Positions 2,737 to 59,903 of a stretch of DNA of 64,000 nt are shown one piece after another. Each line of letters starts with the position of its first letter. The stretch's first letter is position 1. Made by a program: the position numbers and the translations under genes. The stretch comes from Enterobacteria phage RB18, in the sequence record NC_054906.1. One strand, given 5' to 3'. The notes below the pieces were generated by a model. The model was not told where the DNA came from. It searched no databases and worked only from the letters and a program-made list of their open reading frames with translations.

Positions 2737-2767
2737 GTTGTTTTCTGTATCAGTAGTTGATAGTTGT

Positions 2768-2797: not shown

Positions 2798-2927
2798 AGT
2801 TTTGTGAAAAAATTTTTAAAAAGTTTTAGGGAATTCTAGGGTCAGGAGGGGCAATTAAAAGATAGGATAATATATTATAAAGGGTAGAAACTAAATGATG
2901 CCTAGAGAGGCCCAGAAAGGCCTAGAT

Positions 2928-2958
2928 ACCAAAAAGCCCCAACCTTTTGGTCGGGGCT
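2928..2958 (-). terminator. rho-independent terminator (minus strand) downstream of ORF 2966..3439
   Basis: Minus-strand hairpin AGCCCCGACC-AAAA-GGTTGGGGCT followed by a T-run; near-identical copy at 3484..3513. Confidence 0.6.
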
Positions 2959-2965
2959 AAGAATG

Positions 2966-3439
2966 TTATTTGATTTGTTTAGCAGACCAAATGCGGTCTT
3001 TAATAATTTTTTGGATGTCTTCAACATACTCTAGGTCATGAGCATGTGGGTTATCTTTAAAACTATAAGCACGAGCTAACTTTTGACCTTCAGTTTTGAT
3101 TACTAAAAGCTCTTTAAGGATAGCTTCATATCTGGAGATAATTCCTTTAACAATATTTTTTTCTTGTGTAGCTTTAGGATCTGCTTTAGGAGCAGGTTTA
3201 CCCGAAGCCTTTGCAAAAGCAGCGCCAGTAGCAACTAAACTTTTCCAGGCCATACTAACTGCATTCCCTGTAAATCCTTCGGCTTTCATATCACGAGCAA
3301 ATTGGAATCGTGATTCATCGGAAGCATCTTTATAGGAATATTTACCCGCGGCAATGGCTGCTTTTGCGACAGCTTGAATTTCGGTGCTAGATGCTTCATT
3401 TAACACCGCTTCATTTAAAAATTGAGCATATGATTTCAT
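2966..3439 (-). CDS. capsid-targeted internal protein candidate (N-terminal CTS-like leader MKSYAQFLNE|A)
   Basis: N-terminus resembles the T4 internal-protein capsid targeting sequence with an L-x-E cleavage motif for prohead protease; own TATAAATA late promoter and AGGAAA Shine-Dalgarno; Ala/Lys-rich. Confidence 0.55.
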   Translation of the reverse strand: MKSYAQFLNEAVLNEASSTEIQAVAKAAIAAGKYSYKDASDESRFQFARDMKAEGFTGNAVSMAWKSLVATGAAFAKASGKPAPKADPKATQEKNIVKGIISRYEAILKELLVIKTEGQKLARAYSFKDNPHAHDLEYVEDIQKIIKDRIWSAKQIK

Positions 3440-3475: not shown

Positions 3476-3483
3476 TATTTATA
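3476..3483 (-). promoter_or_regulatory. T4-type late promoter TATAAATA (minus strand) for ORF 2966..3439
   Basis: Exact TATAAATA on minus strand, about 37 nt upstream of the ATG, directly after a terminator. Confidence 0.5.
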
Positions 3484-3513
3484 CCAAAAAGCCCCAACCT
3501 TTCGGTCGGGGCT
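3484..3513 (-). terminator. rho-independent terminator (minus strand) after the tRNA-like RNA
   Basis: Minus-strand hairpin AGCCCCGACC-GAAA-GGTTGGGGCT followed by TTTTTGG; paralogous to 2928..2958. Confidence 0.6.
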
Positions 3514-3564
3514 AAGCCTTGCGGCAACCTTGTCGGGGTTCCACCTGCTAAGGCAAGTGTTTGT

Positions 3565-4191: not shown

Positions 4192-4267
4192 TGGTCGAGG
4201 CAGTAGGGATCGAACCTACGACCCAGGACTTAGAAGGTCCTTGCTCTTCCTTCTGAGCTATGCCCCG
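4192..4267 (-). tRNA. tRNA-Arg (anticodon UCU)
   Basis: Hand-folded cloverleaf: acceptor CGGGGCA/TGCCTCG, D-stem GCTC/GAGC, anticodon loop CTTCTAA, T-loop GGTTCGATCC, encoded CCA. Confidence 0.8.
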
Positions 4268-4271
4268 TAAT

Positions 4272-4347
4272 TGGGGTGACCGATGGGAGTCGAACCCATG
4301 ACTACGAGAATCACAATCTCGAGTTCTACCAACTGAACTACGGCCAC
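4272..4347 (-). tRNA. tRNA-His (anticodon GUG)
   Basis: Hand-folded cloverleaf: acceptor GTGGCCG/CGGTCAC, anticodon loop TTGTGAT, T-loop GGGTTCGACTCCC, encoded CCA. Confidence 0.75.
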
Positions 4348-4461
4348 ATTAATACCTACTCCAACAATCAAGATGTCTTCACACGAAATTAAGAGAAGAG
4401 TGATCAGTTCAACCCTTATAATCGCGTCAAGTAGATATTAATGTGACAGTTGTCACAAATT

Positions 4462-4536
4462 TGGCGGACGTGATAGGATTCGAACCTATAACCAATCGCT
4501 TAACAGGCGATCGCTCTGCCATTGAGCTACACATCC
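4462..4536 (-). tRNA. tRNA-Asn (anticodon GUU)
   Basis: Hand-folded cloverleaf: acceptor GGATGTG/CACGTCC, anticodon loop CTGTTAA, T-loop AGGTTCGAATCCT, encoded CCA. Confidence 0.75.
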
Positions 4537-4540
4537 AAAT

Positions 4541-4627
4541 TGGTGGGGAGTGATGGAGTCGAACCACCCGAGTCGCAATGACAATGGATTTACAGTCCAC
4601 ACCGCTACCTCTACGGGATAACTCCCC
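4541..4627 (-). tRNA. tRNA-Tyr (anticodon GUA), class II with long variable arm
   Basis: Acceptor GGGGAGT/ACTCCCC, anticodon stem-loop GTGGA-CTGTAAA-TCCAT, 15-nt variable arm, T-loop GGTTCGACTCC, encoded CCA. Confidence 0.75.
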
Positions 4628-4633
4628 TTAATT

Positions 4634-4708
4634 TGGTGGCCCTGGGTGGAATTGAACCACCATCTGGCGATTATGAGTCGCTTGCTTGAACCTTCCAGCT
4701 ACAGGGCC
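4634..4708 (-). tRNA. tRNA-Ile (anticodon CAU, Ile2/lysidine type; Met not excluded)
   Basis: Acceptor GGCCCTG/CAGGGCC; anticodon stem-loop GCGACTCATAATCGC is the Ile2-type context; encoded CCA. Confidence 0.7.
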
Positions 4709-4709
4709 T

Positions 4710-4785
4710 TGGTGCTGATTGACGGAATCGAACCGCCGACCTTCTCATTACAAGTGAGTTGCTCTACCTATTGAGCTAAATCAGC
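4710..4785 (-). tRNA. tRNA-Thr (anticodon UGU)
   Basis: Acceptor GCTGATT/AATCAGC, D-stem GCTC/GAGC, anticodon loop CTTGTAA, T-loop GGTTCGATTCC, encoded CCA. Confidence 0.8.
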
Positions 4786-4790
4786 AAAAC

Positions 4791-4880
4791 TGGCGGAGGC
4801 GATAGGATTTGAACCTATGAGTCGCCGGAGCGACTGCCGGTTTTCAAGACCGGTGCATTAAACCACTCTGCCACGCCTCC
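4791..4880 (-). tRNA. tRNA-Ser (anticodon UGA), class II with long variable arm
   Basis: Acceptor GGAGGCG/CGCCTCC, anticodon loop CTTGAAA, long variable arm, T-loop GGTTCAAATCC, encoded CCA. Confidence 0.8.
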
Positions 4881-4886
4881 AAATAT

Positions 4887-5537
4887 TTATATATTGTTAA
4901 TTTGATTTAGAATTCTTTTTGCTTGAGTATGACTTACGCCAATATGCTTAGCATATTTAGACAATTCGCCACGTTTAGAAAAATCATATAATTTAGAAAT
5001 TTCTATTCTTCTTTTTCTTTCATCCGCAGAAACTTTTGCTTCGTTCGCTTTTGCTATTTTACGTTTAGCTTCTTGAGAATGAGTTTTACCAGCAAAGCCA
5101 TTCTTCATTAATCCATTTGAAGACCATCCTTTTAATTTTCCGTTAGAATGTGCCTTTTTAACACCCAATGAAATTAATTCGCGCTGCTGATCTGTCATAG
5201 GATAATTATTTATATGGTCCCATCCACCTTCACCTCCAAGTTTTAAATTATACACATCTGGTCTATTTAAAAACTCTTCTGTGACAATATTTTTCTCGGC
5301 TTCAAGCATAGATTCTTTATCGTCAAAATACTCTAATATTTCTTTAGAAAAATTTTCTATACCATATTTATCTTGGGCTCTTTTTAATAATTTACCAGAA
5401 CCCATATATCCATCATCTAAATTTTCGGTAGAATGCACACCAATATAAATTTTATTATTAATTTTATTTGTTATTTTATAAAGATAAAAATGCATATCAG
5501 TCCCTAATAAAGAACTGAGCGTCTCACGACGAGTCAT
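4887..5537 (-). CDS. segB: GIY-YIG homing endonuclease SegB-like, inserted within the tRNA cluster
   Basis: N-terminal GIY-YIG signature YLYKITNKINNKIYIGVHS...GYMGSG; basic C-terminal DNA-binding-like region; sits between tRNA-Gly and tRNA-Ser as segB does in T4-type phages; true start may be the internal ATG at 5495, which has a better Shine-Dalgarno. Confidence 0.8.
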   Translation of the reverse strand: MTRRETLSSLLGTDMHFYLYKITNKINNKIYIGVHSTENLDDGYMGSGKLLKRAQDKYGIENFSKEILEYFDDKESMLEAEKNIVTEEFLNRPDVYNLKLGGEGGWDHINNYPMTDQQRELISLGVKKAHSNGKLKGWSSNGLMKNGFAGKTHSQEAKRKIAKANEAKVSADERKRRIEISKLYDFSKRGELSKYAKHIGVSHTQAKRILNQINNI

Positions 5538-5541
5538 AAAT

Positions 5542-5615
<74 letters not shown>

Positions 5616-5620
5616 AAATT

Positions 5621-5707
5621 TGGTGCGAGAAGTGGGACTCGAACCCACAAGGAAATCATTCCGCAGCATTTTAAGTGCTGTGCCTTTACCAATTTGACCA
5701 TTCTCGC
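5621..5707 (-). tRNA. tRNA-Leu (anticodon UAA), class II
   Basis: Acceptor GCGAGAA/TTCTCGC, anticodon loop CTTAAAA, long variable arm, T-loop GGGTTCGAGTCCC, encoded CCA; abuts tRNA-Gln as a Gln-Leu dimer. Confidence 0.8.
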
Positions 5708-5708
5708 G

Positions 5709-5781
5709 CTGGGAATAAAGGACTCGAACCTTTGCATCCTGGAATCAAAATCCAGTGCCTTACCAACTTGGCTAATTCCCA
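5709..5781 (-). tRNA. tRNA-Gln (anticodon UUG)
   Basis: Acceptor TGGGAAT/ATTCCCA, anticodon stem-loop CTGGA-TTTTGAT-TCCAG, T-loop AGGTTCGAGTCCT; CCA not encoded. Confidence 0.8.
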
Positions 5782-6392: not shown

Positions 6393-6682
6393 GCTGCATT
6401 AATATAAGTATATTTAATACATTCAAGACTTAAAGGATTCTTGAAAATATCATATTCAAGAGGACCTTTTTCTGTTTCAATAAAGAAATCAAAATTTACT
6501 GTATTAAATTTACGGTCTTCCTTCACTAATTTAACCTGAGAAGATGAACGGTCAATGTAAACCTTTTCAACTTCAAAACATGTTAAAATGCCATAATCAT
6601 CAATCAAGGCTTTAGCTGCTTCTTGATCATATTTATATCCATTTTCAATGGACGATACTTTCGCATAAAGTATCATTATCAA
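6386..6682 (-). CDS. hypothetical protein (98 aa)
   Basis: ORF with short start/stop overlaps to both neighbours. Confidence 0.5.
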   Translation of the reverse strand: MIMILYAKVSSIENGYKYDQEAAKALIDDYGILTCFEVEKVYIDRSSSQVKLVKEDRKFNTVNFDFFIETEKGPLEYDIFKNPLSLECIKYTYINAAW

Positions 6683-7089
6683 CCTCTATCAACAATAGCA
6701 TGAGTATGGGCATTTACGATTTGCCACCAGTCGAAACGATTGGAACCATAATCTGGTTTATTTTCATTTTCTTTAATGATATCACGCAGTTTATCTTCTG
6801 TTTCAGCATACGCAATTAAATCATCATATCCACCGCAAGGATAATAATTATCACCTGCGAATAAAAGAAAATTTACCTTAGATGGATTTACGTAATAATG
6901 GTCTTTAGGATATTTAGTTCCTCTCCAATCAGTTACTTCAACATAACGGTAAGAAAATCCATTTTTACTTTCAATCCAACTCCACGCTTCAAAAGGAGTA
7001 TTAAAAACTTTATCAGGTATTAAATTACCTTCAAAATGAGAAGGATTTGCATAATCCCCGGCATAAACATAATATTCGTTAATACTCAT
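6679..7089 (-). CDS. hypothetical protein (136 aa)
   Basis: ORF with ATGA-type overlap to the downstream gene. Confidence 0.5.
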   Translation of the reverse strand: MSINEYYVYAGDYANPSHFEGNLIPDKVFNTPFEAWSWIESKNGFSYRYVEVTDWRGTKYPKDHYYVNPSKVNFLLFAGDNYYPCGGYDDLIAYAETEDKLRDIIKENENKPDYGSNRFDWWQIVNAHTHAIVDRG

Positions 7090-7275
7090 TTATTCACCTT
7101 TAGAAATTTTATCCATAACGATAGCGATTAAACCAATTAAAAATGCTACTACAAGCGAAAACACATTTTCTGCTGTAGTTAATAATCCGCATATAAATCC
7201 AACAAACATTGAAAAACTAAAAGCGGAAGCAGAAATTGCAATAGCAACATTTCGAATTAATTCACAACGTTTCAT
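7090..7275 (-). CDS. hypothetical small hydrophobic protein (61 aa)
   Basis: Single long hydrophobic segment SAFSFSMFVGFICGLL...VVAFLIGLIAIV; early-type promoter element immediately upstream. Confidence 0.45.
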   Translation of the reverse strand: MKRCELIRNVAIAISASAFSFSMFVGFICGLLTTAENVFSLVVAFLIGLIAIVMDKISKGE

Positions 7276-7303
7276 TTTATTCTCCTCGGTAGTTGATAGG
7301 GTA

Positions 7304-7333
7304 ATAGTATCACTACCCTATCTAAAAGTAAAC
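7304..7333 (-). promoter_or_regulatory. early-type promoter element (minus strand: -35 GTTTAC, 18-nt spacer, -10 TACTAT)
   Basis: Minus strand GTTTACTTTTAGATAGGGTAGTGATACTATTACCCTATCAA; shares an identical 24-mer with the copy 300 bp upstream. Confidence 0.45.
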
Positions 7334-7567
7334 TTATTTTTTACGAAAAATTGATTTATATTTATCAGCCCATTTCTCAATGACTTTTGCCGGGCCATAG
7401 ATAACAAAGTAATCGCCAAACTCTTCACCACCGAGTTGACCGAAATCATCTAATGCATCACGAAGAACTCCATGAGGCATTTCACCCATTTTATCTTTCT
7501 TGCCAGTGTAAATAAACTCAACTTTTACATCAGCAGTTTCAGCAATAAATTCTTGATACGTTTTCAT
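7334..7567 (-). CDS. ipI: internal protein I-like capsid-targeted protein (CTS leader MKTYQEFIAE)
   Basis: ATG at 7567 with GGAG Shine-Dalgarno (track ORF starts at an upstream GTG); N-terminus is the internal-protein capsid targeting sequence with L/I-x-E cleavage motif; position between 57B and the tRNA region matches the ipI locus. Confidence 0.7.
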   Translation of the reverse strand: MKTYQEFIAETADVKVEFIYTGKKDKMGEMPHGVLRDALDDFGQLGGEEFGDYFVIYGPAKVIEKWADKYKSIFRKK

Positions 7568-7603
7568 TTTGTTCTCCAATTTCACATTTGTTTTGATAGG
7601 GTA

Positions 7604-7633
7604 ATAGTATCACTACTAAAACCCCATGTAAAC
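7604..7633 (-). promoter_or_regulatory. early-type promoter element upstream of the ipI-like gene (minus strand: -35 GTTTACA, 17-nt spacer, -10 TACTAT)
   Basis: Minus strand TTTAAAATAATTTCACAAAGTTGTTTACATGGGGTTTTAGTAGTGATACTATTACCCTATCAA. Confidence 0.45.
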
Positions 7634-7645
7634 AACTTTGTGAAA

Positions 7646-8330
<685 letters not shown>

Positions 8331-8331
<1 letters not shown>

Positions 8332-55350: not shown

Positions 55351-55380
55351 GGGGACCGAAAGGTCCCCATATTTTTATTT
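55351..55380. terminator. bidirectional hairpin terminator between convergent gene 54 and the alt region
   Basis: Hairpin GGGGACCGAAAGGTCCCC followed by ATATTTTTATTT. Confidence 0.7.
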
Positions 55381-55725: not shown

Positions 55726-57783
55726 CTACATTTTGAACTTTTTAGACATTCCGTTGATGTTAACCAAAGAAGCTAAGATTTGAGAAACTTCGTTTTCCTC
55801 TTCTTTTGATTCTTCTACAAGGAATTGATTAAATCCAGCCATTGGACGAACTTCTCCGGTTTCCATTAGATAGTCACCATCATATACTGATTCTTCTAAT
55901 TGTTCAGAAGGAGGAACGATTGTACCTTCGATTAGATACTTGTTATAAGCAGTTTCTTTCATAAAGTAAGTACTTACTTTATTAATCTTCAGTAAAATTC
56001 CACGCGGTAGAATAACTTCAGCTTCTGATGGAAATCCTGTTAAATGACCTGGAACGATAACTTTGATTCGCTCAGCTCCTTTAATTACCATACCCACGCT
56101 AGTTTCAGCATCTTCATTAGCATATGTAGAATGACTACCCATATGCATCAAATCTTCTGCATCAACAGAACCTTCTCCTTCACCAGAAAATACTGCGCCG
56201 GAATCATCTAGAGCCATATAGTTTTTACCATGCTCACCGAAGATATTTGGTTTAAGTGATGTCGATACGAAGTTCTTGAAATAGAACATTTTGTTTTCAA
56301 TGTTATGACGCAAAGTTTTAAAGGTAACTTCTTGTCCACGATAAAGCGTAGTTCCTGGAGGAAGAACTGAACCTTTAGCGAATGCAGAATCCAACGTCTC
56401 GATGTGCTTAATAGCTCGTTCCATATATTCTTCACGGGTAGAATCTGGTTTACCCAAAAGGAACGAGTTCATTTCAACATATGAATCTGCACAATAATCT
56501 TCAATTACATCAGATTCAGCTTGAGTTAATCCTTTTGGAGTTACTTCGGTGCTTGCGTATTCATATGCCTGAGCAGCAGATTCATTAATCAATTTATAAA
56601 TGCCATTCATGACAAATTGAATAATAGCTGTCTTTTCATCTGGCGTAGCTTTAGAACCTTTAACCAAATCATTGATAATTTTCTTAATAACATCAAAGCT
56701 ATTAGAAATATTAATATCAGCAAGATCGCTTAAAATTTTATCAGTTTTATAATCAAAGAATTCTTTATTCTTTAAATATTCTTGAGAACCTTGATATGTT
56801 ATATCGCTCTGCAACTTGATGGATGGATCACGTAAACGTGCATGGGCTAATGCAATATGATTTCGGAAGTTTTCTAGTTCATAATCGCTAGATTTAAAAC
56901 GAGAAGCACTCCTCATACCACCGATAGCTCCTTTGTTGAAGTTTGAACCAATCTGAATAACGCCAGAGTTCATTGGTCCTTCTGCTTTATATACCGGAAC
57001 TTTGGATTCAAACTCTTGATATTTCTTAGCAGCGAAGCTATCACCCTGAAGTGAAGCATCAACAGTAGAATATTGAGCTTGTGCTGCTAATCGACGACTA
57101 ATTTTAGTTTTCTGAATAACAGCTTGGTCAGTGCGCTTATCATTTTCTAAAGCAATAGAAGCAGCAACTGCGACAGCTTTAGGAACAGCATTACCTGTTT
57201 TAACGTCTACATAAACATCACCAACCTTTGATTCAACTTTTGTGAATAACTCAGCTGAAATAGGAGGTACACCTGGAATGTCTTCTAAATTGGCATTTTT
57301 ACGGTAAACCATAATATATGCATATTTCTTATCATAGTCCCAGATTTCCTTTAAAAGAACATATCGGCCTGCTCCTTTAGTACGTACTAAACGGTCAGCA
57401 ATAACTTGCATTTGACGAGCAGCGCCATTTGTTTTACTCTTTAGTACGCGGAATAAGCATGCATCAATTTTATACTGTTTCATTGTTTGAAGAGCAGTAT
57501 CAAAAACAGCATTAATGACGCCAATTGGATTTCCACCCAAGTTTTTAAGCTTAACTAATGATAGTTTCTCATTAACACCTATCATTACGATATGCATCAT
57601 TTTGTCGCCTGGCTTAACGTTTTTATTCGTATCACCGCCAGAGGTGTATGTACAAAATCTAAATCCGGGGAGAACGCTTTCTTCACCGGCTTGAATAGCA
57701 AAAATTTGTGGTATTTTATGCTTAGGATTTAAGTTAACAACCGGCGCCGAAGCGCCGTCAAATAATTCTGTAATAAGTTCCAT
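55726..57783 (-). CDS. Alt-like ADP-ribosyltransferase paralog (685 aa)
   Basis: Paralogous to the upstream alt gene along its length (N-terminus MELITELFD..., shared blocks KYAYI..., NFVSTSL); ART motifs R (YRGQ), S-T-S (FVSTSL), E-x-E (SEAEVILPRG). Confidence 0.85.
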   Translation of the reverse strand: MELITELFDGASAPVVNLNPKHKIPQIFAIQAGEESVLPGFRFCTYTSGGDTNKNVKPGDKMMHIVMIGVNEKLSLVKLKNLGGNPIGVINAVFDTALQTMKQYKIDACLFRVLKSKTNGAARQMQVIADRLVRTKGAGRYVLLKEIWDYDKKYAYIMVYRKNANLEDIPGVPPISAELFTKVESKVGDVYVDVKTGNAVPKAVAVAASIALENDKRTDQAVIQKTKISRRLAAQAQYSTVDASLQGDSFAAKKYQEFESKVPVYKAEGPMNSGVIQIGSNFNKGAIGGMRSASRFKSSDYELENFRNHIALAHARLRDPSIKLQSDITYQGSQEYLKNKEFFDYKTDKILSDLADINISNSFDVIKKIINDLVKGSKATPDEKTAIIQFVMNGIYKLINESAAQAYEYASTEVTPKGLTQAESDVIEDYCADSYVEMNSFLLGKPDSTREEYMERAIKHIETLDSAFAKGSVLPPGTTLYRGQEVTFKTLRHNIENKMFYFKNFVSTSLKPNIFGEHGKNYMALDDSGAVFSGEGEGSVDAEDLMHMGSHSTYANEDAETSVGMVIKGAERIKVIVPGHLTGFPSEAEVILPRGILLKINKVSTYFMKETAYNKYLIEGTIVPPSEQLEESVYDGDYLMETGEVRPMAGFNQFLVEESKEEENEVSQILASLVNINGMSKKFKM

Positions 57784-57786
57784 GAT

Positions 57787-59880
57787 TTATCCTTGAACGA
57801 ACTTGTAAGGCATGTTTGTAATATCTATGCAAGACGCAATAATTCCAAGAGATGATTCTACTTTCTGTTTAACATTTGATGAAACAAATGATGCAAAGTC
57901 AACTCTGTCTTCTATTTCAATATCACCTGTCATTGCAACCAATTCACCAGTTTCCATTAAATGGTCTCCGTCATAGATTACCGATTCGGTGAGTTCTTCG
58001 GTGGTCATAACTTCAGCTTGAATGAGTTTTGTATTATTAGACGTGGTTCCGTCATTATTAGAAGCATCAGTTATTTTATTAACTTTGACCATCAATCCGC
58101 GCGGTAGAATAACTTCAGCTTCTGTTGCTATTCCGAGATTTCCTGGATATACAACATTAACTTTATGAGCTCCATCAATTGCCCATCCTATTTGAACTTT
58201 AACGTATTCAGGATTTTCTTTATACGCTCTTATTTCGCTTGGATTAATAGTTATTCCTTCTTCATTTTTATCAACTGTCAATTCATTACGAGCTTCTGGT
58301 TCTAAAAGACCAATACCAGCATGTGTAATTCCAAAACGTCCAAAAATGATAGGAGTTAAAGAAGTAGATACAAAATTTCTGAAATAGAACACTTTATTTT
58401 TAACTAGTGCTTCGTATATAGGAGCAGTCATACTTTGAGCACGATAAACTGTGATGCCTTCCGGTATGCGGTCACCATTTTCAAAAGCTGAATCTAAGTT
58501 ATTTATAGCAGATTCAATTTCTTTTTCACTCATTACATCATATCGTTCTGGATTGTAACGACCTAAAAGAAGATTATTGATGTCAGTATATCCTGAACCG
58601 CAATATTCTCTAATGCCACGCTTTTGTGATGGAGTATATTTAGAACCATCGCGGGCAATAGTAATATCAATCATTGGACCAGCACCAATTCCAGAAAAAC
58701 TGTAAATCATTCGTTTGAGGAATTTAGTTTTTGCTGCGTTCCAGGAATTTTTAGTTATTTCTTCCCAGACTTCATCTGGTTGTCCTTTACGATTTTTATT
58801 ATGATTAGCAAGCCATTTATCTTTATAATCTTCAAAGAATTGATTTACAGCTGCTGCGTATTTCTCTAAACATTTTATTGAAGTAGTTGGTTCATTTTTA
58901 ATTGCATTAAAAATTACTTCTTTAATTTTTTCTGAAACTTCACCGACTTGACTCATTGGAAAGAATTTATAATCATAGTGAAGTTCATCTGCCGTTCCTT
59001 CAGCAATAATTTTTGCTGCCTTTGTTTTAGAAGCTAATGAATTAATTCCAATTTTCATTTCTTCTGCTTCGGGAATTAAAGGTGCAGTAGCTGGTTTATT
59101 AAAATTAGCTGCTGTAGATTCATACTTCTGGAATAATTCACTTTCAAATCTAGAAGATTCCAATGACTGACTTTGTGCAATTGCTCTACGGGAAATTTTA
59201 ACTTTAACGATTACAGCTTGGTCAGAACGTTTATCATTTTCTTGCGCAATAGATGCTGCAATTGCCTCATTTTTAGTTACTTGGGCTCCAGTATCTTTAT
59301 TGATATAAACATCACCGACTTTCGATTCAACTTTAGTAAAGAGCTCGGTACTAATTTCCGGAACTCCTGGAATGTCTTCTAGTGATACATTTTTGCGATG
59401 TATAAGAATATATGCATACTTTTTATCGTAATCCCAGAGTTCCTTAAGAAGGACGTATCTACCACCTGAACGACTACGGATAAGTCTATCAGCAATAACT
59501 TGAATTTGTCGAGCTTGGCCAGCAGTTTTAGACTTAAGAATACGAAGCATACAAGCATCAATTTTATATTGACGCATTGTTTGCATTGCAACAGTAAAAA
59601 CTGAATTGATATAATTAATCGGGCTTGGACCAAGACCTTTTAATTTGGCAATTGAACCTTTAGCAGTTAATGTAAAAGGAACAATATGCATCATTTTATC
59701 GCCCATCTTTAAATCGCGATTAGTATCACCTCCAGATGTATAGGTACATAAACGAAAGCCTGGTTGTTCAATTGCATCATCAACATGAACTGAAAAAATT
59801 TGTGGTATTTTCTTCTTTGGATTTAAGTTTGTAATCGGAAGAGTAGTATCTTCGTCAAATAATTCTGTAATAAGTTCCAT
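57787..59880 (-). CDS. alt: Alt ADP-ribosyltransferase, virion-packaged (697 aa from second ATG)
   Basis: ART motifs R (YRAQ), S-T-S (FVSTSL), E-x-E (TEAEVILPRG); own TATAAATA late promoter; N-terminus MELITELFDE. Confidence 0.9.
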   Translation of the reverse strand: MELITELFDEDTTLPITNLNPKKKIPQIFSVHVDDAIEQPGFRLCTYTSGGDTNRDLKMGDKMMHIVPFTLTAKGSIAKLKGLGPSPINYINSVFTVAMQTMRQYKIDACMLRILKSKTAGQARQIQVIADRLIRSRSGGRYVLLKELWDYDKKYAYILIHRKNVSLEDIPGVPEISTELFTKVESKVGDVYINKDTGAQVTKNEAIAASIAQENDKRSDQAVIVKVKISRRAIAQSQSLESSRFESELFQKYESTAANFNKPATAPLIPEAEEMKIGINSLASKTKAAKIIAEGTADELHYDYKFFPMSQVGEVSEKIKEVIFNAIKNEPTTSIKCLEKYAAAVNQFFEDYKDKWLANHNKNRKGQPDEVWEEITKNSWNAAKTKFLKRMIYSFSGIGAGPMIDITIARDGSKYTPSQKRGIREYCGSGYTDINNLLLGRYNPERYDVMSEKEIESAINNLDSAFENGDRIPEGITVYRAQSMTAPIYEALVKNKVFYFRNFVSTSLTPIIFGRFGITHAGIGLLEPEARNELTVDKNEEGITINPSEIRAYKENPEYVKVQIGWAIDGAHKVNVVYPGNLGIATEAEVILPRGLMVKVNKITDASNNDGTTSNNTKLIQAEVMTTEELTESVIYDGDHLMETGELVAMTGDIEIEDRVDFASFVSSNVKQKVESSLGIIASCIDITNMPYKFVQG

Positions 59881-59903
59881 CATAGCCTCTCTAGTGTTTA
59901 TTC

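What the first reader, a model, noticed from the sequence alone, without database searches (positions are those of the whole stretch)
7293..7616. Identical 24-bp direct repeats, exactly 300 bp apart, flanking the ipI-like gene
TTGATAGGGTAATAGTATCACTAC occurs at 7293..7316 and 7593..7616, immediately downstream and upstream of the ipI-like ORF. Each copy overlaps the -10 region of an early-type promoter. A partial third copy (GTAGTTGATAG) sits in the promoter at 2753..2763. Identical repeats bracketing a hypervariable gene look like a recombination cassette boundary that allows allele swapping between co-infecting phages, as well as being promoter cores.
Basis: seen in the sequence. Interest (0 to 1): 0.5.

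Follow-up and report, generated by a model that had tools for sequence, protein, structure and literature searches.

The report
Repeated promoter cores bounding internal-protein cassette
The two identical 24-bp repeats are the -10 cores of two T4-type early promoters that flank an injected "internal protein" gene in a T4-like phage. Related phages show the same core at every junction of this variable locus with clear traces of recombination inside it, a real but already published way of swapping anti-defence gene cassettes.

Summary
TTGATAGGGTAATAGTATCACTAC occurs exactly twice in the window, at 7293-7316 and 7593-7616, where chance expects none.

The window is a Tequatrovirus (T4-like phage) with its genes on the minus strand. 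On that strand the repeat reads GTAGTGATACTATTACCCTATCAA. It covers the extended -10 (TGaTACTAT) and about 11 nt downstream in two T4-type early promoters (GTTTAC -35). One promoter precedes an Ip6/IpVI-class internal-protein gene (7334-7567). The other precedes the tRNA.4 homologue.

In 17 Tequatrovirus ip loci, all 45 junctions between 57B/Acb1, one to four ip cassettes of six unrelated types, and tRNA.4 carry the same core. The sequence blocks to the left and right of the core occur in nearly every combination. This shows crossovers inside the core. Crossovers also occur in a 31-nt stop-codon/UP/-35 block and at the ribosome-site/ATG/targeting-signal block.

Each junction also forms a hairpin centred on the -10.

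Novelty: already known.

The parts
7293..7316 (-). Repeat copy 1. The coding strand reads GTAGTGATACTATTACCCTATCAA. It covers the extended -10 (TGa + TACTAT at 7304-7309) and about 11 nt downstream, up to the predicted start site of the promoter for the tRNA.4 homologue.
7593..7616 (-). Repeat copy 2, with the same 24 nt. It covers the extended -10 (TACTAT at 7604-7609) of the promoter for the internal-protein gene.
7276..7333 (-). Junction between IP-A and tRNA.4. It has the -35 GTTTAC at 7328-7333, a C-type spacer (TTTTAGATAGGG), the core, and a c-type leader (CTACCGAGGAG, which includes the ribosome-binding site). A 12-bp hairpin at 7295-7322 has the -10 in its loop and 3' arm.
   Evidence: fold (-16.4 kcal/mol; z -3.2 for the 61-nt junction, -5.0 for the 37-nt core)
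7568..7645 (-). Junction between 57B and IP-A. It has an UP-like TTTCACAAAGTT, the -35 GTTTAC at 7628-7633, an A-type spacer (ATGGGGTTTTAG), the core, and an a-type leader (AAAACAAATGTGAAATTGGAG). Nearly the whole junction is an imperfect 72-nt palindrome (7577-7648).
   Evidence: fold (-29.1 kcal/mol, z -6.0)
7627..7657 (-). 31-nt block GATTTAAAATAATTTCACAAAGTTGTTTACA. It spans the last three codons and stop of 57B, the UP region and the -35. The identical block follows the IP-D gene in PST, QOTSP, AV120 and RB15. Gain or loss of a whole IP-D or IP-B cassette relative to this window maps here.
   Evidence: alignment gaps of +331 and +367 nt placed at 7626
7334..7567 (-). Internal-protein gene of 77 aa, class IP-A (Ip6/IpVI). 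It has the capsid-targeting signal MKTYQEFIAE. The mechanical ORF call starts at a GTG at 7585; the ATG at 7567 follows GGAG.
7090..7275 (-). tRNA.4 homologue (61 aa, annotated in T4 as a predicted membrane protein). It is the conserved downstream anchor of the ip locus.
7646..8101 (-). 57B, which is Acb1 (anti-CBASS phosphodiesterase). It is the conserved upstream anchor of the ip locus.
2753..2763 (-). Partial third copy (CTATCAACTAC on the coding strand), downstream of the -10 of another early-type promoter (2768-2796). This promoter belongs to a different subfamily and is not part of the ip locus.

Best explanation
The two 24-mers are the shared cores of two T4-type early promoters, covering the extended -10 and the predicted start-site region. 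These promoters form the intergenic junctions of the internal-protein (ip) locus between 57B/Acb1 and tRNA.4 in a Tequatrovirus.

Each ip gene sits in a self-contained cassette made of leader, ribosome-binding site, capsid-targeting signal, a variable body, and then the -35 and spacer of the next promoter. The junction sequences are conserved while the gene bodies are unrelated. Ordinary T4 homologous recombination can therefore cross over in register within the junctions, either during mixed infection or between direct repeats in one genome. It uses three short homology blocks: the core, the 31-nt stop/UP/-35 block, and the ribosome-site/ATG/targeting-signal block. The outcome is replacement, gain, loss or reordering of ip cassettes without disturbing their expression. 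ip genes encode injected inhibitors of host GmrSD-type restriction, so this reshuffles the phage's counter-defence set.

Shown here: the anatomy, the presence of the core at all 45 junctions examined, mosaic junctions, and the breakpoint positions.

Inferred: promoter activity (from the match to T4 early-promoter-like sites), that recombination is passive and homology-driven, and that the hairpin acts on read-through RNA.
For: - The repeat is exact and far beyond chance.
- The window is 98% identical to phage JK1 and is collinear with T4 across 57A-57B-ip-tRNA.4-tRNA.3.
- Every junction in JK1, PST, QOTSP, PaulHMueller, T4, RB15, KAW1E185, teqdroes, OES_C-2, AV120, ZN18, KMB40 and four IMG/VR contigs has the core: 45 of 45.
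- Six unrelated IP classes occur in seven different orders: A; B; C; D-A; B-A; E-C; D-E-C-F.
- Junction block combinations are A-a 7, A-a2 6, A-b 1, A-c 3, B-b 10, C-a 1, C-a2 1, C-b 2, C-c 13. A and C each occur with a, b and c, which indicates crossovers within the roughly 24-nt core.
- Leaders also reassort relative to the downstream gene. The a-leader precedes tRNA.4 in teqdroes and RB15, and the c-leader precedes IP-A in KMB40 and IP-E in RB15.
- In PST, junction 3 carries the TATCTCATC variant found in PST junction 1, which suggests conversion within one genome.
- Against PaulHMueller, the flanks and both repeats are 99-100% identical but the ip ORF is only 88.5% identical. There are 27 mismatches within 7335-7431, ending at the junction, and none from 7432 to 7924.
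- The IP-D or IP-B cassette indel relative to the window sits at the 31-nt block.
- Literature: Arbiol 2010 (PMC2839356) states that Repoila 1994 saw PeSL-like elements, based on T4 early promoters with AT-rich stem-loops, at the IP loci. T4 recombines between very short homologies (PMC9391042). Ip1, Ip2 and Ip3 each block a distinct GmrSD enzyme (PMC12373910).
Against: - No transcription start or promoter activity was measured for this phage.
- Conservation of the core could be explained entirely by promoter and hairpin function, with recombination as a by-product.
- The only whole-cassette indel involving this window maps to the neighbouring 31-nt block, not the 24-mer.
- One edge of the divergent allele patch lies inside the ORF.
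- Similar cores occur at four other T4 early promoters: before frd.1, ndd.4, cd.2 and denV. Other candidate T4 early promoters share even longer identities, up to 51 nt. A 24-nt identity between two early promoters is therefore not special to ip genes.
- The sample is 16 distinct genomes chosen from BLAST hits, not a systematic survey.
Confidence: 0.8

Rival explanations
1. The repeats are only conserved regulatory sequence. They are identical because both are strong early promoters embedded in a selected hairpin. They play no meaningful part in generating ip diversity, which instead arises by illegitimate recombination or by exchange within the flanking genes.
For: Candidate T4 early promoters across the genome form a family of long near-identical sequences. 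The hairpin is strongly non-random: z < -2 in 41 of 52 distinct ip-locus promoters. A fixed-register stem is paired in 71% of cells against 28-61% when the partner is slid. Purifying selection alone could keep 24 nt identical.
Against: Mosaic junctions in which A and C left blocks each occur with a, b and c right blocks require exchange within the core. Indel and allele-patch edges coincide with junction blocks. Every cassette of six unrelated gene classes is bounded by the same core.
Confidence: 0.12
2. The element is an active mobile cassette of the PeSL type. The hairpin or palindrome would be extruded as a cruciform, or recognised by a specific protein such as endonuclease VII. This would start targeted recombination and release circular ip cassettes (a 300-bp circle here) that can insert at any other junction.
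For: The -10-centred inverted repeats are strong (-16.4 and -29.1 kcal/mol). PeSL mini-circles have been demonstrated in RB49 and phi1 (PMC2839356). ip cassettes appear in different orders in different phages.
Against: There is no evidence here for circles or for a dedicated enzyme. According to Arbiol 2010 the T-even elements are analogues, not homologues, of PeSLs and lack the polyG/polyC stems. T4's general recombination system already acts on much shorter homologies. Recombinant junctions such as C-b break the stem complementarity, so the hairpin is not strictly needed for exchange.
Confidence: 0.08
3. The repeats are relics of a tandem duplication. ip genes would have arisen by duplication and divergence, and the junction repeats would simply be the slowest-diverging part of the duplicated unit.
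For: All ip genes share the N-terminal targeting signal and similar junctions, as expected for an ancient duplication.
Against: The gene bodies of the six classes show no detectable similarity beyond the signal, while the non-coding junctions are nearly identical. Junction blocks reassort. The same cassette has different neighbours in different phages.
Confidence: 0.05

Closest known systems
IP-locus promoter/stem-loop elements of T-even phages (Repoila, Tetart, Bouet and Krisch 1994, EMBO J 13:4181, as described in Arbiol 2010, PMC2839356, and Comeau 2014, PMC4122927)
   Same: It is the same locus (57B to tRNA.4) and the same kind of element: a T4 early promoter plus an AT-rich stem-loop between variable ip genes. 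The proposed role in shuffling ip genes and changing host range is also the same. The RB15 sequence from that study (Z35082: ip5-ip9-ip7-ip8) carries the same core at all five junctions.
   Different: Nothing essential differs. This window is another genome with a single Ip6-type cassette. I could not read the 1994 paper itself, so I cannot say how much of the block-by-block mosaic analysis was already in it.
PeSLs (promoter-early stem-loops) of RB49, phi1, PST/T4 and nt-1/KVP40 (Arbiol 2010; Comeau 2014)
   Same: Both are short, repeated, composite regulatory elements in intergenic DNA of hyperplastic regions. Both flank small non-essential genes and mark insertions, deletions and replacements between close relatives. 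Both act as linkers for homologous recombination.
   Different: PeSLs have a sigma-70-like promoter next to a GC-rich (GGGG...CCCC) stem-loop that was shown to terminate transcription. Here the stem-loop lies over the promoter, with the -10 in the loop and 3' arm. It is AT-richer and has no following U-run, so termination is doubtful. Arbiol 2010 calls the T-even IP elements analogues, not homologues. Mini-circles were not tested.
T4 early promoters (consensus of Liebig and Ruger 1989, cited)
   Same: The -35 is GTTTAC, the spacing to TAnnnT is 18 nt, the -10 is extended with TGn, and an A/T-rich TTTCACAAA lies upstream. The positions match T4 sites before ipI (-10 at about 73.91 kb) and tRNA.4 (73.54 kb).
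   Different: The ip-locus promoters are a subfamily. They have a fixed GTGATACTATTACC(C/T)(T/C)ATCAA core and a -10-centred inverted repeat. That repeat is strong in only about 8 of 34 candidate T4 early promoters genome-wide but in most ip-locus promoters.
T4 genes whose ribosome site is sequestered in read-through transcripts (e, soc, I-TevI; recalled from memory, not tested)
   Same: In several distant relatives the promoter spacer pairs with the downstream GGAG (for example CTCCATTTGG...CCAAATGGAG). Only transcripts that start at the internal promoter would then be open for translation.
   Different: In this window the hairpins end at or before the first G of GGAG, so sequestration would be weak at best.

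Membership tests
T4-type early promoter | -35 GTTTAC, then 17-18 nt, then an extended -10 TGnTAnnnT, with an A/T-rich upstream region | tested here: met
   Both copies have GTTTAC + 18 nt + TACTAT preceded by TGa. They align with T4 sites at 73.91 and 73.54 kb.
T4-type early promoter | Transcription starts there early in infection | not testable with these tools
   No transcript data are available for this phage. The T4 promoter catalogue (Miller 2003) was not held.
IP-locus shuffling elements / PeSL-like linkers | Near-identical copies in the intergenic spaces of a variable locus, bounding each variable gene | tested here: met
   45 of 45 junctions in 17 loci carry the core.
IP-locus shuffling elements / PeSL-like linkers | Differences between close relatives (insertion, deletion, replacement) have their end points in the elements | tested here: met
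   Junction blocks are mosaic. Cassette indels of +331 and +367 nt sit at the 31-nt block, and one edge of the allele patch lies at the junction.
PeSL (strict sense, RB49/phi1) | A GC-rich stem-loop next to the promoter that terminates upstream transcription | tested here: not met
   A stem-loop is present but lies over the -10, is AT-richer, and has no U-run. The terminator scan found none at either junction. Termination itself was not assayed.
PeSL (strict sense, RB49/phi1) | Formation of encapsidated mini-circles by recombination between flanking elements | not testable with these tools
   This needs inverse PCR or long-read data (method in PMC2839356).
T-even internal protein (IP) gene | N-terminal capsid-targeting signal MK(T/S)(Y/F)x(E/Q)F..E followed by a variable body | tested here: met
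   The protein starts MKTYQEFIAE. It matches PHROG 8111 'internal virion protein' at E=3.9e-51 and is annotated Ip6/IpVI in JK1, PST and VR7.
ipI (T4 IPI, GmrSD inhibitor) orthologue | Sequence similarity to T4 IPI beyond the targeting signal | tested here: not met
   BLASTP aligns only residues 1-16. The gene clusters as a separate class, IP-A against IP-B.
Structured RNA family (Rfam) | A match to a curated covariance model | tested here: not met
   No match with E <= 1 in 7000-7900.

The most novel reading that the evidence does not exclude
The hairpin or palindrome laid over the promoter may be a functional part of the cassette system rather than a passive linker. In the 57B-to-ip junction it spans 72 nt, from the 57B stop codon to the ribosome-binding site.

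One possibility is that it is extruded in DNA and cut, for example by endonuclease VII. That would make the junction a recombination hot spot and release a 300-bp circular ip cassette. Another is that it folds in read-through RNA and insulates each cassette, so that only transcripts started at the cassette's own promoter are stable or translated.

Either would make the ip locus a dedicated gene-cassette array, loosely comparable to an integron but driven by homology.
Probability: 0.12. Interest if true: 0.55.

Novelty: already known. Interest (0 to 1): 0.27.

Why it matters
Internal proteins are injected with the DNA. Ip1, Ip2 and Ip3 of T4 each disarm a different GmrSD-type restriction enzyme (PMC12373910). 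A locus where such genes can be swapped, added or dropped in register, each with its own promoter, gives T4-like phages a quick way to change which hosts they can infect. This is relevant to predicting host range and to engineering therapeutic phages.

The conserved core also gives a practical handle. A primer pair or search pattern on the junction would enumerate ip cassettes in any Tequatrovirus genome.

The principle is already published, so this window adds one more example and a clearer block-by-block picture of where the crossovers fall. It does not add a new concept.

Tried and rejected
- I tried to read Repoila 1994 (PMC395341), Miller 2003 (PMC150520) and Bair 2007 (PMC1868451). None is held, so the earlier work is cited through Arbiol 2010 and Comeau 2014.
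- An exact-pattern scan of IMG/VR for the degenerate core gave only 13 stretches, because few Tequatroviruses are present there. It was not used for statistics.
- I tested whether the hairpin acts in RNA rather than DNA. In a fixed register, G.U cells (27) do not outnumber A.C cells (57). The coding strand folds better in 40 of 52 cases, but that is largely forced by the conserved TGn/TAnnnT letters. The result is inconclusive.
- The fixed-register covariation count gives only moderate support: 71.3% of cells paired against 67.6% in shuffles, and covariation score 0.210 against 0.171, with 0 of 500 shuffles reaching either value. The number of pairs with double changes is not above the shuffles. 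At least two hairpin geometries exist, so one register fits poorly.
- Rfam gave no match and Pfam gave nothing for the ip or tRNA.4 proteins.
- I rejected any special meaning for the "exactly 300 bp" spacing. It is simply the length of the IP-A cassette. It is also 300 in JK1, QOTSP and PaulHMueller, 298 in PST, and 367 for the ipI cassette in T4.
- I rejected the intrinsic-terminator reading of the hairpins because there is no U-run and the scan found no terminator there.

Full report
**1. Observation**

The 24-mer TTGATAGGGTAATAGTATCACTAC is present at 7293-7316 and 7593-7616 and nowhere else in the 64-kb window. This holds with up to 3 mismatches (0 expected in 100 dinucleotide-preserving shuffles) and with up to 5. 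The similarity continues to 41 nt at 80% identity and takes in the hexamer GTTTAC (family D13). The 11-mer GTAGTTGATAG, the "third copy", occurs only at 2753-2763 and 7289-7299.

**2. Context**

The window is a Tequatrovirus. The region 6600-8200 is 98.3% identical to Escherichia phage JK1, and 760 phage records match it. Gene order on the minus strand is:
- 57A (8101-8331)
- 57B (7646-8101), which is Acb1, Pfam PF23474, E=2.6e-60
- a 77-aa gene (7334-7567)
- the tRNA.4 homologue (7090-7275)
- tRNA.3 (6679-7089)

The 77-aa protein begins MKTYQEFIAE, the capsid-targeting signal of T-even internal proteins. It matches PHROG 8111 "internal virion protein" and is annotated Ip6/IpVI in relatives. 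It is not an ipI orthologue, because BLASTP against T4 IPI aligns only residues 1-16.

**3. What the repeat is**

On the coding strand the repeat reads GTAGTGATACTATTACCCTATCAA. In both copies it lies 11 nt after GTTTAC, which gives GTTTAC + 18 nt + TACTAT with a TGn extension. The consensus scan picked up the upstream one. The downstream one has the GTTTACTTT form that many candidate T4 early promoters show.

T4 has matching sites at the same two positions, with the 24-mer starting at 73,922 (before ipI) and 73,555 (before tRNA.4). Each differs from the 24-mer at 2 positions. The repeat therefore spans the extended -10 and the predicted start-site region of two early promoters. Promoter activity itself is inferred, not measured.

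**4. Test of the cassette-boundary idea**

I collected the 57B-to-tRNA.4 interval from 17 Tequatrovirus loci:
- the window, JK1, PaulHMueller, OES_C-2, ZN18, T4, PST, QOTSP, AV120, KAW1E185, teqdroes and KMB40
- RB15, record Z35082, from the 1994 study
- four IMG/VR contigs

One IMG/VR contig (L038) has the same length as ZN18 and is probably that genome, so there are 16 distinct genomes.

The interval holds one to four ip genes that fall into six classes unrelated beyond the signal. The orders seen are A; B; C; D-A; B-A; E-C; and D-E-C-F. In more distant T4-like phages it holds none to three. All 45 junctions contain GTGATACTATTACC with at most 3 mismatches, and 44 of them have at most 2.

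*Mosaic junctions.* The 12 nt to the left of the core fall into three types:
- A: ATGGGGTTTTAG
- B: ATACTGATGAGG
- C: TTTTAGATAGGG

The leader to the right falls into types a/a2, b and c. The observed combinations are A-a 7, A-a2 6, A-b 1, A-c 3, B-b 10, C-a 1, C-a2 1, C-b 2 and C-c 13. The types differ at many positions, so recurrent mutation cannot explain why both A and C occur with each of a, b and c. Crossovers must have occurred between the two blocks, that is, inside the roughly 24-nt core. For example, T4's junction before tRNA.4 is A-c, whereas the window's is C-c.

*Other crossover sites.* Leaders also reassort relative to the gene they precede. The a-leader precedes tRNA.4 in teqdroes and RB15, and the c-leader precedes IP-A in KMB40. 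This points to a further crossover site at the shared ribosome-site/ATG/targeting-signal sequence.

A third block is the 31-nt GATTTAAAATAATTTCACAAAGTTGTTTACA. It is identical after 57B and after IP-D, and both proteins end in DLK. The IP-D cassette (+331 nt in QOTSP) and the IP-B cassette (+367 nt in teqdroes) that this window lacks are placed by the alignment exactly at the end of that block, at position 7626.

*Other signs of exchange.* PST's third junction carries the TATCTCATC variant of its first junction, which suggests conversion within one genome.

Against PaulHMueller the flanks, both repeats and both junctions are 94-100% identical, but the ip ORF is only 88.5% identical. There are 27 mismatches within 7335-7431, and then none from 7432 to 7924. 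One edge of the exchanged patch therefore lies at the junction and the other lies inside the gene.

**5. Hairpin**

Both junctions fold strongly on the coding strand.
- The IP-A-to-tRNA.4 junction has a 12-bp stem at 7295-7322 with the -10 in the loop and 3' arm. The energy is -16.4 kcal/mol, with z -3.2 for the 61-nt junction and -5.0 for the 37-nt core.
- The 57B-to-IP-A junction is an imperfect palindrome of 72 nt (7577-7648), at -29.1 kcal/mol and z -6.0. It pairs the UP/-35 region with the a-type leader.

Among 52 distinct ip-locus promoter windows from Tequatrovirus and more distant T4-like phages, 41 have z < -2, with a mean of -4.2. The stems use different sequences in different lineages, for example GATGAGGTA/TACCTCATC, GGTAGGACTAT/GTAGTCCTACC and GAGGGCTAT/ATAGCCCT.

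A fixed-register count gives 71.3% of cells paired, against 28-61% when the partner is slid. There are 35 doubly changed cells against 21 in shuffles, a value reached in 0 of 500 shuffles. This is moderate support, because more than one geometry exists.

Genome-wide in T4 only about 8 of 34 candidate early promoters have such a hairpin, and the median z is -1.0. It is therefore a subclass feature. Neither hairpin is followed by a U-run, and the terminator scan found nothing there. Whether the stem acts in RNA or DNA could not be decided. No Rfam family matches.

**6. Specificity**

In the complete T4 genome (assembled), sequences within 6 mismatches of the 24-mer occur at six places, all on the minus strand and all at candidate early promoters:
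- before ipI
- before tRNA.4
- before frd.1
- before ndd.4
- before cd.2
- before denV, directly after ipII

The core is therefore concentrated at, but not exclusive to, the ip locus. Other early-promoter subfamilies share even longer identities: the promoter-like sites whose -10 lies at 55,355 and 146,846 have 51 identical nt. The window's partial third copy belongs to one of those subfamilies.

**7. Comparison with what is known**

Arbiol et al. 2010 (PMC2839356) state that Repoila et al. [quoted passage not shown] They describe these as based on T4 early promoters with weaker, AT-rich stem-loops. They regard them as analogues rather than homologues of PeSLs, and as possibly responsible for IP plasticity. 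Comeau et al. 2014 (PMC4122927) repeat this.

PeSLs proper have a GC-rich terminator stem-loop next to the promoter and form mini-circles. Here the stem lies over the promoter and has no terminator features, so strict PeSL membership is not met, although the proposed way of working is the same.

T4 recombination between very short homologies has been shown experimentally (PMC9391042). Ip1, Ip2 and Ip3 each inhibit a different GmrSD enzyme (PMC12373910), which explains why shuffling these genes matters.

**8. Verdict**

The phenomenon is already described for exactly this locus, so novelty is "already known" and interest is modest.

This analysis adds three things:
- a base-level picture of three crossover blocks per junction
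- a four-gamete argument that places crossovers inside the core
- the finding that the -10-centred hairpin is a consistent feature of ip-locus promoters across T4-like phages

Noticed in passing
window 2926-2961 and 3481-3516 (repeat); ORF 2966-3439 (-): This looks like a second repeat-bounded cassette. A 36-nt direct repeat (97% identical, 555 nt apart) is an intrinsic-terminator hairpin, AGCCCCGACC..GGTTGGGGCT followed by a T-run. It flanks a 157-aa ORF that starts MKSYAQFLNEA, which resembles an internal-protein targeting signal, and is preceded by a late-promoter-like TATAAATA. The cassette varies among relatives. Of 768 matching records, 448 cover at least 80% of the region. T2, Lv5cm and phage 132 lack about 555 nt. 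ime09, U115 and fPS-65 have about 680 nt extra.
   Followed up: partly
window 7646-8101 (-): 57B is Acb1, the anti-CBASS phosphodiesterase (Pfam PF23474, E=2.6e-60). The variable internal-protein locus therefore sits directly beside another counter-defence gene.
   Followed up: partly
window 4887-5537 (-), within the tRNA cluster 4192-5781: A 216-aa ORF lies between tRNA-Ser and tRNA-Gly, at the position where JK1 and T4 have tRNA-Pro. By its sequence motifs it looks like a SegB-type GIY-YIG homing endonuclease, though I did not run it against any family library. No tRNA-Pro or tRNA-Ile was found in the window. QOTSP has an annotated homing endonuclease directly before tRNA-Gly in the same way. 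The window has 10 tRNAs, including His, Asn, Tyr and Met, which T4 lacks.
   Followed up: partly
window 7577-7648 (-): The whole 57B-to-ip promoter region is an imperfect 72-nt palindrome. TAATTTCACA pairs with TGTGAAATTG and TTGTTT pairs with AAACAA, giving -29.1 kcal/mol and z -6.0. It mirrors a weak promoter-like site on the opposite strand (TTCACA-18-TAGTAT). Its function is unknown.
   Followed up: partly
window 7335-7431: This is a patch of allelic divergence in the C-terminal third of the ip gene. There are 27 mismatches to PaulHMueller and QOTSP within about 97 nt, next to a stretch of about 490 nt with none against PaulHMueller. Ip6 alleles in the phage collection range from 77% to 100% amino-acid identity, and 244 records hold the gene.
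   Followed up: partly
T4 genome (AF158101): promoter-like sites with the -10 at 55,355 and 146,846; also 27,051, 70,667, 163,644 and 167,057: Candidate T4 early promoters at distant loci share very long identical stretches (51 nt for the first pair) and a common downstream motif, TACTATACAACTATCAACTACTGATAC. They are potential substrates for large deletions, duplications or inversions.
   Followed up: no
window 55974-59883: There are several direct-repeat families with a constant spacing of about 2094-2103 nt and 70-78% identity (D1, D4, D5, D9, D10, D19). This suggests two tandem paralogous genes of about 2.1 kb each.
   Followed up: no
loci L008, L013, L024, L039, L036, L040 (distant T4-like phages), promoter before the tRNA.4 homologue: In these phages the promoter spacer is complementary to the downstream ribosome-binding site, for example CTCCATTTGG...CCAAATGGAG. 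Read-through transcripts would hide the ribosome site, while transcripts started at the promoter would not.
   Followed up: no
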